This document shows, piece by piece, positions 40,872 to 44,000 of a DNA stretch of 64,000 nt (positions are counted from its first letter, which is position 1; each line of letters opens with the position of its first letter). The stretch covers positions 2,976,001 through 3,040,000 of the forward strand of contig NC_088802.1 of the NCBI RefSeq assembly GCF_011386835.1, written 5' to 3'. The notes under the pieces were generated by a model. That model was not told where the DNA came from. It saw only the letters and a list, made by a program, of their open reading frames with translations, and made no database searches. This stretch comes from Chrysemys picta bellii (lineage: Eukaryota). Made by a program: the position numbers and the translations under genes.

Positions 40872-41061
40872 TTCTAATTATAGCATCAAACTGAGAAAGT
40901 CAGCCACTGTTCAGTCATAGCGAGCTGGGACACTTCCGTATTTTGACGTCAGCGAGTCGTTTTTAAGGGAGGTGAAATTTGGGGGCACGCAAGACAAATC
41001 CGAGCCCTGAAATGGGGGGCAGTCAGAGGCGCCGGCCCCAGGGGTGCTCCGGGGCCCTGGC

Positions 41062-44000
41062 CTAATTGCAGAAATCGCCCTCACAGCAGGTGTAGGAGGT
41101 GGTGTAGGTGACGCCGGCCCAGGTGGCCGTGTCCTGGGTGCTGCATTTCACCTCGTCCACACAGTTCTTCCGCACAATCGTCTTGTGGCCAGCTGGGGGG
41201 AGAGAGAGAGAGGGGGAATGAGAGAAGGAAACAAGAGAATGAAGGAAGGAGGGAGGAACCAAGGGAAAGAGTGAGAGAGAGAGAGAGAACAAAAAAGAGA
41301 ACAGAGGAACGAGAGAGAACATGAAGGAATAAGAAAAGGAACAAGAGAGAGCAACAGAGCCAGAGAACAAGGGAACGAGACAGGGACCGAGAGAGAGCGA
41401 TAGAGCAGGAGAACGAGGGAAGGGGGCAGAGACCAAGAGAGAGCGATGGAGCCAGAGAATGAGGGACCGGGACCGAGAGAGAGGGACAGAGCCGGAGAAG
41501 GGGGGAAGGGGAAGGGGACAGAGAGAGAGTGACAGAGCCGGAGAAGGGGGGAAGGGGACAGGGACCGAGAGAGAGCGATGGAGCCGGAGAAGGAGGGAAG
41601 GGGATGGGGACCAAGAGAGAGCGACAGAGCCGGAGAAGGAGGGACCGGGACCGAGAGAGAGGGACGGAGCCGGAGAAGGAGGGAAGGGGACGGGCTCTGA
41701 GAGAGAGTGACGGAGCCGGAGAAGGGGGGAAGGGGACAGGCACCGAGAGAGAGCGATGGAGCCGGAGAACGGGGAAAGGGGATGGGGACCAAGAGAGGGA
41801 GGGAGCCCCAGGGAGAGGGAAGGCAGCAGGAAGGGGGAAGGAGCCCAAAGCCGCGGGCAGGGGGCTGTTACCTGCATGGCCCCGGATGGTGGCACAGAGC
41901 TGCCCGGCCTGGCAGGTGACCGGGGTGAGCTGACAGGGGGCGTCGAACGCGGTGAAGTCGCATTTCAGGCACTGCAGGGCCACGCCTGGGAACAGAGAGC
42001 AGGGGGGTGAGAGTGGGCCCCTCCCCGCAGATCCCCCCCAGCTGGGCACTAGGGGCTGCTCCCCGGGGGGTCCCTGCCTGCATTTAGGCCTGTCTCCAGC
42101 CCCATGACAGCGCCCCCTGGAGGGATCCCCGGGGAATGAGGCGGGGAGCTGGGACTCAGGCCGGGAGGTCTGGTGGGGGGCAGGAGGTGTTGGGGGGGCT
42201 GGGGTTGAGGTGGGGTGAATAAGGGGCCGGGATTCAGGTCAGGGGTGGGTCAGGGGTTAAGGGGATGGGGGTGAGGCTGGGGGGCTGAGGGGTGAGGAGA
42301 TGGGGGGCAGGTCGGGGACTGGCCGGGGCTCAGGTTAGGATGGGGGGGGACAGGGAAAGGCCCAGCCCTCCTCTAGCCAGTGGGGGTTTAACATGGTTTG
42401 AAGGGGGAGGGTCCATTTCCCCTCCCCCCCATTCCCACAAGACCCCCGCTGGGGATGGAGCTGGGAGATCCCATGGATCCTCCTCCCCTCCCCCAGAGGT
42501 GCCCCCTTCCCCTCCTCCAGGCAGCGAGGAGACTGGTGAGTTAACAGGGGTGGGGAGGGAGGTGATGAGCCCCTCCCCCATAAGTGCCCCTCACTCCCGA
42601 CCCGCAGCCCCCTGCTAACCCAGCTCTGCCGGTGCCCCTCACTCCCGACCCGCAGCCCCTGCCAGCCCAGCCCTGGGCTCCCCCCCACACCCGGACACGT
42701 CCTAATAATCTTGGGCCTGGGGGGCAAAGTGCGACTCTCCTCTGGGACGAGAACCAACGGAGAAAACTGTTGCGCAGCTAAAAATATTTCTTCTGGGCTG
42801 TGAGCGAAGTGGCAGCTGGTCGGGCAGCTTCAGTATCGTCCCCCCCCTCCCCGCCCCCATCCTCCCCCCCACCCCGACCTCCCCCCGCAACCCGCGCATG
42901 CTGATAAGCTGCGGTAGCCAGAGCCTGGGGCTAATCATTCAAAGGGGCCTGTAAACAGGACACATGTTTAAGGCAGCAAAAATAACCCCACTTTTCCCAC
43001 CCCACTACTCCACCTCCCCCGGTTCCCCTTAAAGCTCCGTCTGCCACCCCCCAACGCCCCCGTTACGCCGCTTCCTTCCTCCCATGCTAAAAAAAAGAGA
43101 TGAATAAGACTGGGACTTTTGAACTTGGAAAAGAGGCGACTAAGGGGGGATATGACTGAAGTCTATAAAATCATGACTGGCTTGGAGAAAGTGAATAAGG
43201 AAGTGTTATTTACTCCTTGTCATAACACAAGAACTTGGGGCCACCCAATGAAATTAATAGGCAGCATGTTTAAAACAAACAAAAGGAAGTATTTCTTCAC
43301 ACAACACACTGTTAACCTGTGGAACTCCTTGCCAGAGGATGTTGTGAAGGCCAAGACTATAACGGGGTTCAAAAGGGAGCTAGACAGATTCATGGAGGAT
43401 CGGTCCATCAATGGCTATTAGCCAGGATGGGCAGGGATGGTGTCCCTAGCCTCGGTTTGCCAGAGGCTGGGAATGGGCAACGGGGGATGGATCACTTGAT
43501 GATTCCCTGTTCTGTTCATTCCCTCTGGGGCACCTGGCATTGGCCACTGTCGGCAGACGGGATACTGGGCTAGATGGACCTTTGGTCTGACCCAGTCTGG
43601 CCGCTCTTACGTTCTTCTCTTGGGAAGAATCACCTTAATTCTGGCTGCTTTTTGTCCAATGGCCTGAGTTTTGGGAATTAAACTCTTCCAGTCGGGAAGG
43701 AGAGCAGAGCCTTTCGGGACAAAGCGGGGAATTTTCTTGGTGTTTTGCATGACTGCTGTGTGCATGCCTCAGTTTCCCTGTGGGCTGTGTGTGTAACCAG
43801 GGGGTGGGAGAGGGGGGGTTGCTGTTGCAGAGGAAGACCAGGTGTGACCTGGGCTAGCAGTCGGGACCCCAGACAAGGGCCTGGAGATTGGGTAACCCGG
43901 CGTGACCGAAAGGCCCAGCCCAGCTCGGGAGGACAAAGGGCTGAGGAGAGAGGACCCTGGCGACCTGCCCAGCCCGTGGGGAGCAAAGGACAGAAGGGGG

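What the first reader, a model, noticed from the sequence alone, without database searches (positions are those of the whole stretch)
41010..41192. Ly6-B is a minimal secreted three-finger protein: TAG where its sister has TCG (Ser) right after CN
Seen: Ly6-A reads TGC AAC TCG GCT, whereas Ly6-B reads TGC AAT TAG GCC. The following 3' UTR still resembles the decayed tail-coding sequence, an AATAAA follows at 40866-40871, and all 10 Cys and all splice sites are intact. The mature product is ~78 aa. Established: mammalian SLURPs and snake three-finger toxins are Ly6 proteins that end at CCxxxxCN and are secreted. Inference: an independent SLURP- or toxin-like secreted ligand.
Basis: partly seen in the sequence, partly recalled or inferred. 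Interest (0 to 1): 0.72.

Follow-up and report, generated by a model that had tools for sequence, protein, structure and literature searches.

The report
Turtle Ly6 copy that lost its anchor
A spliced turtle gene ends at the same stop right after its three-finger domain in eleven turtle species, so it is predicted to be secreted instead of membrane-anchored and likely acts as a soluble signal on cell-surface receptors; such anchor loss is a known, recurring event and nothing here points to a toxin.

Summary
The stop is real. The three exons splice (GT/AG) into 98 aa, identical to RefSeq XP_065420179.1 ('Bouncer-like', Chrysemys picta bellii). 14 of 15 proteins of this type end at CCxxxxCN, in 11 named turtle species; 80 of 81 relatives from turtles to lungfish keep a 24-34 aa tail. 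Spliced contigs from two organisms keep the TAG. Orthologs diverge about as slowly as the anchored paralog and also lack its N-glycan site. So this is a turtle tandem duplicate that lost its GPI signal long ago and stayed conserved. It lies in the MHC class III LY6G6-type cluster, not in the PF00087 cluster on another contig: an independent loss, not a SLURP or toxin ortholog. Corrections: the 3' UTR's likeness to the lost tail is not above chance, and sister Ly6-A has a broken tail itself; the intact paralog lies outside the window. Secretion is inferred; tissue and target are untested. Anchor loss is common in this family. New member of a known kind; interest 0.4.

The parts
44611..44662 (-). 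Ly6-B exon 1 coding part: most of the predicted signal peptide
   Evidence: exon 1-2 joints (X8, X12)
41872..41985 (-). Ly6-B exon 2: end of leader and first half of the LU domain (Cys 1-5)
   Evidence: joint 41192/41872 CT..AC in 3 of 4 runs
41062..41192 (-). Ly6-B exon 3 coding part: second half of the LU domain (Cys 6-10), ending [12 protein letters not shown]
41062..41064 (-). TAG stop at the position of the Ser codon that opens the GPI signal in the paralogs
40866..41061 (-). 3' UTR with AATAAA at 40871-40866; no hydrophobic tail in any frame; read-through would add only ARAPEHPWGRRL
   Evidence: spliced contig reaches 40885 (X3 record 17)
34311..36307 (-). Ly6-A, tandem paralog (exons 36307-36256, 34772-34659, 34501-34311), 118 aa; tail stops after 20 aa
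   Evidence: RefSeq XP_065420178.1 = P0090
34220..34317 (+). inverted ~100-bp copy of Ly6-A intron 1 (35198-35296, 97% identical) that interrupts A's GPI-signal coding sequence
   Evidence: not bridged by any listed contig in 4 runs

Best explanation
Ly6-B is a spliced, conserved turtle tandem duplicate of a tailed (predicted GPI-anchored) Ly6 gene in the MHC class III cluster; it stops right after its last cysteine and is therefore predicted to be secreted as an 8.4-kDa, unglycosylated three-finger protein that likely acts in trans as a soluble modulator of cell-surface receptors. Shown: gene structure, the stop in 11 species, splicing, constraint after the loss, loss of the loop-III N-glycan site, 13 B-diagnostic substitutions, genomic position. 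Inferred: leader cleavage after Ala20, five disulfides, release through the secretory pathway (about 0.9 likely), and a new binding specificity. Least certain is the target: a nicotinic receptor is the best single guess (about 0.25), by analogy with SLURP1/2 and mouse Ly6g6e.
For: Spliced CDS = P0009. 14 of 15 B-type proteins have no tail; 80 of 81 other family members have 24 aa or more (tails hydrophobic). 13 of 15 keep 10 Cys. Mature-domain differences from Chrysemys, B vs anchored paralog: Malaclemys 1 vs 0, Emys 2 vs 7, Terrapene 0 vs 6-11, Platysternon 1 vs 4, Gopherus 6 vs 5, Mauremys 7-8 vs 6-9 of 78. B vs C dN/dS 0.50. Exon depth in the thousands against mostly under 25 in non-repeat intron bins, with GT/AG joints. 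Pfam PF00087 and PF00021 over cut-off; six-strand model, pLDDT 69; LU folds top both fold searches. G6B domains about 75-85 kb away and CK2-beta about 770 kb away on the same contig. Human LY6G5B/5C in this cluster are listed as lacking a GPI anchor, and Ly6g6e as an alpha4beta2 potentiator (PMC4839075).
Against: No signal-peptide predictor, secretion assay or tissue label was available; library type of the laid runs is a guess. dN/dS 0.50 rests on one paralog pair and mixes both lineages. Ly6g6e's potentiation is lost when its anchor is cleaved (PMC6502960), and secreted Bouncer did not rescue the mutant (10.1101/354688), so anchored relatives need their anchor. No mammalian ortholog was identified: the Rhineura LY6G6e-like protein and Polypterus Bouncer fall outside the family. 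The Dermochelys model has lost 2 Cys and the leader; no B-type protein turned up from Cheloniidae, Trionychia or Pleurodira. Fold Z-scores are all under 8.
Confidence: 0.7

Rival explanations
1. Exported secretion component rather than internal ligand: a skin, mucus, gland or reproductive-tract protein (PATE-like, or pheromone-like as salamander PMF), acting outside the body or on gametes or microbes.
For: Very high contig depth in some runs and far lower in another (thousands in X1, X8, X12; about 310 in X3), compatible with tissue-restricted abundance. Atlas neighbours include PATE14-like and PMF clusters (scores 0.89 and 0.85, leads only). Three-finger proteins were repeatedly recruited to gametes and glands (PMC8904931 passages). 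Decay in the leatherback model hints at a habitat-linked role.
Against: Pheromones and reproductive proteins usually evolve fast (recalled); B differs by only 0-9 of 78 residues across Testudinoidea. Contig depth cannot rank expression and tissues are not on record.
Confidence: 0.17
2. Soluble decoy: B competes with the anchored paralog C for the same partner.
For: 53 of 78 mature residues shared with C; B-type and C-type spliced contigs occur in the same runs X1 and X3.
Against: 13 B-diagnostic positions, loss of the N-glycan site and a shift from 9 basic/8 acidic to 6/7 residues suggest a changed surface.
Confidence: 0.07
3. Transcribed pseudogene or assembly error.
For: The Dermochelys model looks decayed and the Chelydra model has a disrupted exon 2; turtles evolve slowly (recalled), so conservation is weaker evidence than in mammals.
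Against: Same stop in 11 species; 10 Cys and open frame in 13 of 15 proteins; divergence no faster than the anchored paralog; spliced contigs with the TAG.
Confidence: 0.04
4. A defensive or predatory toxin.
For: Same architecture as 10-Cys plesiotypic three-finger toxins; toxin chains are among the fold matches.
Against: Single copy (3 close matches in the genome: A, B, C), slow evolution, different locus from the toxin-type cluster, 16-27% identity to listed toxins; turtles have no known venom system (recalled).
Confidence: 0.02

Closest known systems
Tailed 124-126 aa reptile/amphibian/lungfish Ly6 named automatically 'SPACA4-like', 'Bouncer-like', 'LY6G6e' (alligator) or 'G6d-like' (rattlesnake)
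   Same: Parent group: same three-exon plan and cysteine spacing, 67-76% identity to turtle members, 49-64% to other reptiles; neighbour in the cluster.
   Different: B has no GPI signal, no loop-III N-glycan site and 13 diagnostic substitutions.
Mammalian SLURP1/SLURP2
   Same: Single 10-Cys LU domain, leader, no GPI tail (PMC6600238, PMC4839075 passages).
   Different: Human 8q24 cluster, whose turtle counterpart is likely C2:285.2-285.6 Mb (TOP1MT itself not searched); 17-18% identity in structural alignment. Separate origin; activity of B untested.
Snake three-finger toxins
   Same: Arose by loss of the membrane anchor from a tailed LY6 (PMC10421932, sections 6 and 13); plesiotypic forms have 10 Cys.
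   Different: Other locus, no gene expansion, slow evolution, no evidence of toxicity or gland expression.
Human LY6G5B/LY6G5C and mouse Ly6g6e (MHC class III)
   Same: Same genomic region; 5B and 5C are listed as lacking a GPI anchor.
   Different: One-to-one orthology not shown; no mammalian protein among the ten next-nearest representatives that were named.
Bouncer/SPACA4
   Same: Database name; distant sequence likeness (Polypterus Bouncer E 3e-14).
   Different: Those are single-exon, GPI-anchored gamete proteins; B has three exons, no anchor, and Bouncer falls outside the family.

Membership tests
Ly6/uPAR (LU) single-domain proteins | 10-Cys pattern ending CCxxxxCN | tested here: met
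   (PF00087 27.7 bits over 21.2; PF00021 26.8 over 24.8)
Ly6/uPAR (LU) single-domain proteins | three exons, leader plus two domain exons, phase-1 introns | tested here: met
   exons of 52, 114 and 131 nt; splice joints; definition in PMC6600238
Ly6/uPAR (LU) single-domain proteins | three-finger fold | tested here: met
   six strands, pLDDT 69; GPIHBP1 best in both searches (Z 7.1, rmsd 3.4, 73 aligned); moderate confidence only
Secreted Ly6 (architecture class) | no GPI signal after CN | tested here: met
Secreted Ly6 (architecture class) | cleaved leader and actual secretion | not testable with these tools
   hydrophobic 20-aa leader seen and Pfam domain starts at residue 20-21; no predictor or assay
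SLURP1/SLURP2 orthologs | position in the TOP1MT/THEM6 LY6 cluster and descent from it | tested here: not met
   B on C12 beside G6B and CK2-beta genes; all 28 PF00087 matches on C2; nearest relatives are tailed turtle paralogs
SLURP1/SLURP2 orthologs | nicotinic receptor modulation, epithelial expression | not testable with these tools
   no tissue labels
Snake three-finger toxins | descent from squamate pre-3FTX genes of the TOP1MT cluster | tested here: not met
   PMC10421932
Snake three-finger toxins | venom-gland expression and toxicity | not testable with these tools
   none available
Bouncer/SPACA4 | single coding exon and GPI anchor | tested here: not met
   three exons, no tail
MHC class III LY6G cluster | synteny with MPIG6B/G6B, CSNK2B, ABHD16A | tested here: met
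   G6B Pfam E 1e-10 and 9e-9 at C12:3.10 and 3.09 Mb; CK2-beta at C12:2.245 Mb. The ABHD16A label at C12:3.07 Mb is recalled, not confirmed (blank); DDAH search blank
LY6G6E (mammalian ortholog) | one-to-one orthology | tested here: inconclusive
   alligator member is named LY6G6e, but Rhineura has a separate LY6G6e-like gene outside the family; no named mammalian sequence was in hand

The most novel reading that the evidence does not exclude
Turtles repeated the first step of three-finger toxin evolution at a second locus: an MHC class III Ly6 shed its anchor and glycan, became an abundant exported ligand (receptor-active skin or gland secretion, or a pheromone) kept in freshwater and land turtles and decaying in sea turtles, while its sister Ly6-A is losing its anchor now. 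That would give a living, non-venomous series (anchored C, half-lost A, secreted B) for testing how anchor loss creates new ligands.
Probability: 0.12. Interest if true: 0.75.

Novelty: new member of a known kind. Interest (0 to 1): 0.4.

Why it matters
It adds a phylogenetically bounded, single-locus case of GPI-anchor loss in reptiles outside the cluster that gave snake toxins and SLURPs, with the anchored parent next door, so anchored and soluble forms can be compared directly. It also corrects a misleading 'Bouncer-like' label. The step itself is not surprising: PMC10421932 calls anchor loss relatively common and convergent, and 11 of 48 human LU genes encode secreted single domains (PMC6600238). 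It would matter more if the protein proved to be an exported signal or a receptor ligand.

Tried and rejected
UTR-to-tail homology: not above chance. Rescue of a tail by read-through or another UTR frame: no hydrophobic segment; alternative downstream exons were not searched. No listed sequencing run is on record as RNA; tissue could not be learned. Ly6-A insertion: bins 34222-34313 had no cover in X1, X3, X11 and no listed contig bridged it in 4 runs; spliced contigs there were of the intact-tail type, so it is neither confirmed nor excluded. DDAH family search blank; Atlas blank for the ABHD16A-like exon. PDB sequence search gave only CD59 and PSCA, weak; Foldseek had no match at E <= 0.001. 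The 'A vs C diff 70' was an offset error in my script; the right value is 77 of 78 identical; the tree used a C variant one residue short. The one-clade test failed on a script error, so nesting rests on support values (B 99-100; turtle clade only 81). Ten partial or mis-modelled rows were left out of the tree; P0068, P0071 (no CC..CN motif) and P0072 were left out of the counts, which include near-identical cluster members and are not independent. No complex prediction was run (no suitable partner). No earlier scan notes. PMC12863176 had no LY6 mention.

Full report
Observation. The finding's coordinates hold exon 3 of a three-exon gene on the minus strand. One GT/AG exon set fits: 44662-44611, 41985-41872, 41192-41062. 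It gives 98 aa: a hydrophobic leader and a 78-aa domain with 10 Cys (8.4 kDa, pI 6.0), ending TGC AAT TAG; Ly6-A has TGC AAC TCG GCT there. The product equals RefSeq XP_065420179.1, 'protein Bouncer-like' of Chrysemys picta bellii, whose contig length (57,886,335) equals that of G000:C12. AATAAA at 40871-40866 is confirmed. The claimed likeness of the 3' UTR to the lost tail is not above chance: p = 0.26 local, 0.13 and 0.17 anchored at the stop.

Is the stop real and old? Of 15 B-type proteins retrieved, 14 end at CN. They come from 11 named species (Chrysemys, Malaclemys, Emys, Terrapene, Platysternon, two Gopherus, Chelonoidis, two Mauremys, Chelydra) and one unnamed assembly. The fifteenth, from Dermochelys, continues Q-ARAPEHPRSRCL, colinear with the window's UTR frame; so the tail's frame was likely already destroyed in a shared ancestor, and whether the stop or the frame damage came first is open. 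That model also lacks two Cys and the leader. Of 81 other family members with the motif, 80 have tails of 24 aa or more; the exception is Ly6-A. These counts include near-identical proteins.

Is it used? Four runs laid on the gene show exon bins at depth in the hundreds to over ten thousand (exon 1 uncovered in X3) against mostly under 25 in non-repeat intron bins, the exon 2-3 joint in 3 of 4 runs and the exon 1-2 joint at the exact site in 2 of 4. X3 record 17 runs from exon 2 to 40885, 14 bases short of the AATAAA, with no differing letter. Library type and tissue are not on record. Constraint: across species pairs the mature domain of B differs from the Chrysemys copy by 0-9 of 78 residues, about the same as or less than the anchored paralog in 8 of 9 pairs (Malaclemys 1 vs 0 and Gopherus 6 vs 5 are within one residue; the Chelonoidis comparator, 27, may be another paralog). 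13 of 15 keep 10 Cys. B against C gives dS 0.41, dN 0.21. B also lacks the loop-III N-glycosylation sequon (0 of 15, against 78 of 81; the three exceptions are fragments) and has 13 diagnostic positions.

Where does it come from? The genome has three close copies, A, B and C; C, 36 kb from B and outside the window, has the intact 26-aa tail. B forms one clade (100/99; 99) among turtle tailed genes; tailed relatives extend to crocodilians, tuatara, squamates, amphibians and lungfish. B shares intron 1 sequence with A (258 identities, 40 mismatches). The anchored state is therefore ancestral and B a turtle duplicate; the turtle clade itself has weak support (81). Two G6B-type Ig domains lie at C12:3.09-3.10 Mb and the genome's CK2-beta gene at C12:2.245 Mb: this is the MHC class III LY6G region (PMC4839075). 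All 28 PF00087 matches lie on C2:285.2-285.6 Mb, likely the counterpart of the cluster that holds SLURPs and gave snake toxins (PMC10421932; its marker TOP1MT was not searched). Bouncer and SPACA4 are single-exon anchored genes and Polypterus Bouncer falls outside the family, so the database name misleads. No mammalian ortholog was pinned down.

The sister. Ly6-A's tail is cut after 20 aa by an inverted ~100-bp copy of its own intron 1, whereas the 132-aa Terrapene and Malaclemys counterparts are intact. No listed contig in four runs bridged the insert. It may be a private allele, a recent second anchor loss or an assembly error.

How it likely works. Leader, LU domain, stop: the protein would enter the secretory pathway, lose the leader, form five disulfides (six-strand model, pLDDT 69; LU folds top, all Z under 8) and, with no GPI signal, be released. 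These steps are inferred from family rules (PMC6600238). Slow, constrained evolution after a burst on the stem fits a fixed endogenous partner better than a pheromone or toxin. I commit to a soluble modulator of cell-surface receptors; a nicotinic receptor is the best single guess (about 0.25), since SLURPs and mouse Ly6g6e act there. Against it, Ly6g6e needs its anchor and secreted Bouncer is inactive.

Novelty. The gene is annotated automatically. I found no paper on it: searches ('bouncer-like': 0 papers), judged from listings, in an open-access library only. The kind is well known: PMC10421932 says anchor loss is relatively common and convergent, 11 of 48 human LU genes encode secreted single domains and medaka Bouncer B lacks a GPI signal, and LY6G5B/5C in the same region are unanchored. 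Papers seen: PMC10421932 abstract, introduction, sections 6 and 13 and passages; passages only of PMC4839075, PMC6600238, 10.1101/354688, PMC8488580, PMC6502960, PMC8904931, PMC12863176. No supplements were read; those of PMC10421932 and of the Bouncer papers may list turtle Ly6 sequences or reptile expression data that bear on orthology and tissue.

Verdict. A real, conserved, spliced, independently anchorless turtle Ly6; secretion likely, target unknown, not a toxin on present evidence. New member of a known kind; interest 0.4.

Noticed in passing
window 34220-34317, source 35198-35296: Ly6-A's GPI signal is interrupted by an inverted 97%-identical copy of its own intron 1, giving a 118-aa product; possible second anchor loss or assembly error.
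   Followed up: partly
G000:C12:3051288-3053749 (+): Third paralog C, 124 aa with intact tail, 77 of 78 mature residues identical to A; spliced contigs of its type in 4 of 4 runs.
   Followed up: yes
window 50783-~49700 (-): Another Ly6-like gene (leader MGRTLL..., CCNDTDLCN) whose in-frame tail is Pro/Ala/Arg-rich and not hydrophobic; may be unanchored, frameshifted or alternatively spliced.
   Followed up: no
window 58055-59523 (+): Ly6 gene with a normal hydrophobic tail (PF00021 hit); likeness to LY6G6C is recalled, not tested.
   Followed up: partly
P0017 (Mauremys mutica): Chimeric protein: B-type first half with anchored-type exon 3 and tail; gene conversion or mis-annotation.
   Followed up: no
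P0003 (Dermochelys); Cheloniidae: Leatherback B model looks decayed and no B-type protein was returned for other sea turtles: possible loss in marine turtles, absence not proven.
   Followed up: partly
L018 and L023 (G000:C2:285.58 and 285.62 Mb): Two LY6 last exons in the C2 cluster have short tails (9 and 13 aa) against 27-31 aa in ten others: further truncated or pseudogenised copies.
   Followed up: no
P0133, P0145 (101 aa): Distant Ly6 proteins, one from the caecilian Geotrypetes, ending three residues after CN: other apparent anchor losses in the wider group.
   Followed up: no
G000:C12:3.070, 3.094, 3.100, 3.108, 3.119 Mb: ABHD16A-like exons (recalled label), G6B-type Ig exons (two confirmed by Pfam, a third similar) and a TRAF-like exon (recalled label) flank the cluster.
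   Followed up: partly
window 17827-19120, 46900-47380, 52800-55100; ~45850-46500; 43100-43620: Long GC-rich minisatellite arrays, a Penelope-like endonuclease fragment (recalled label) and a high-copy repeat inside Ly6-B intron 1.
   Followed up: no
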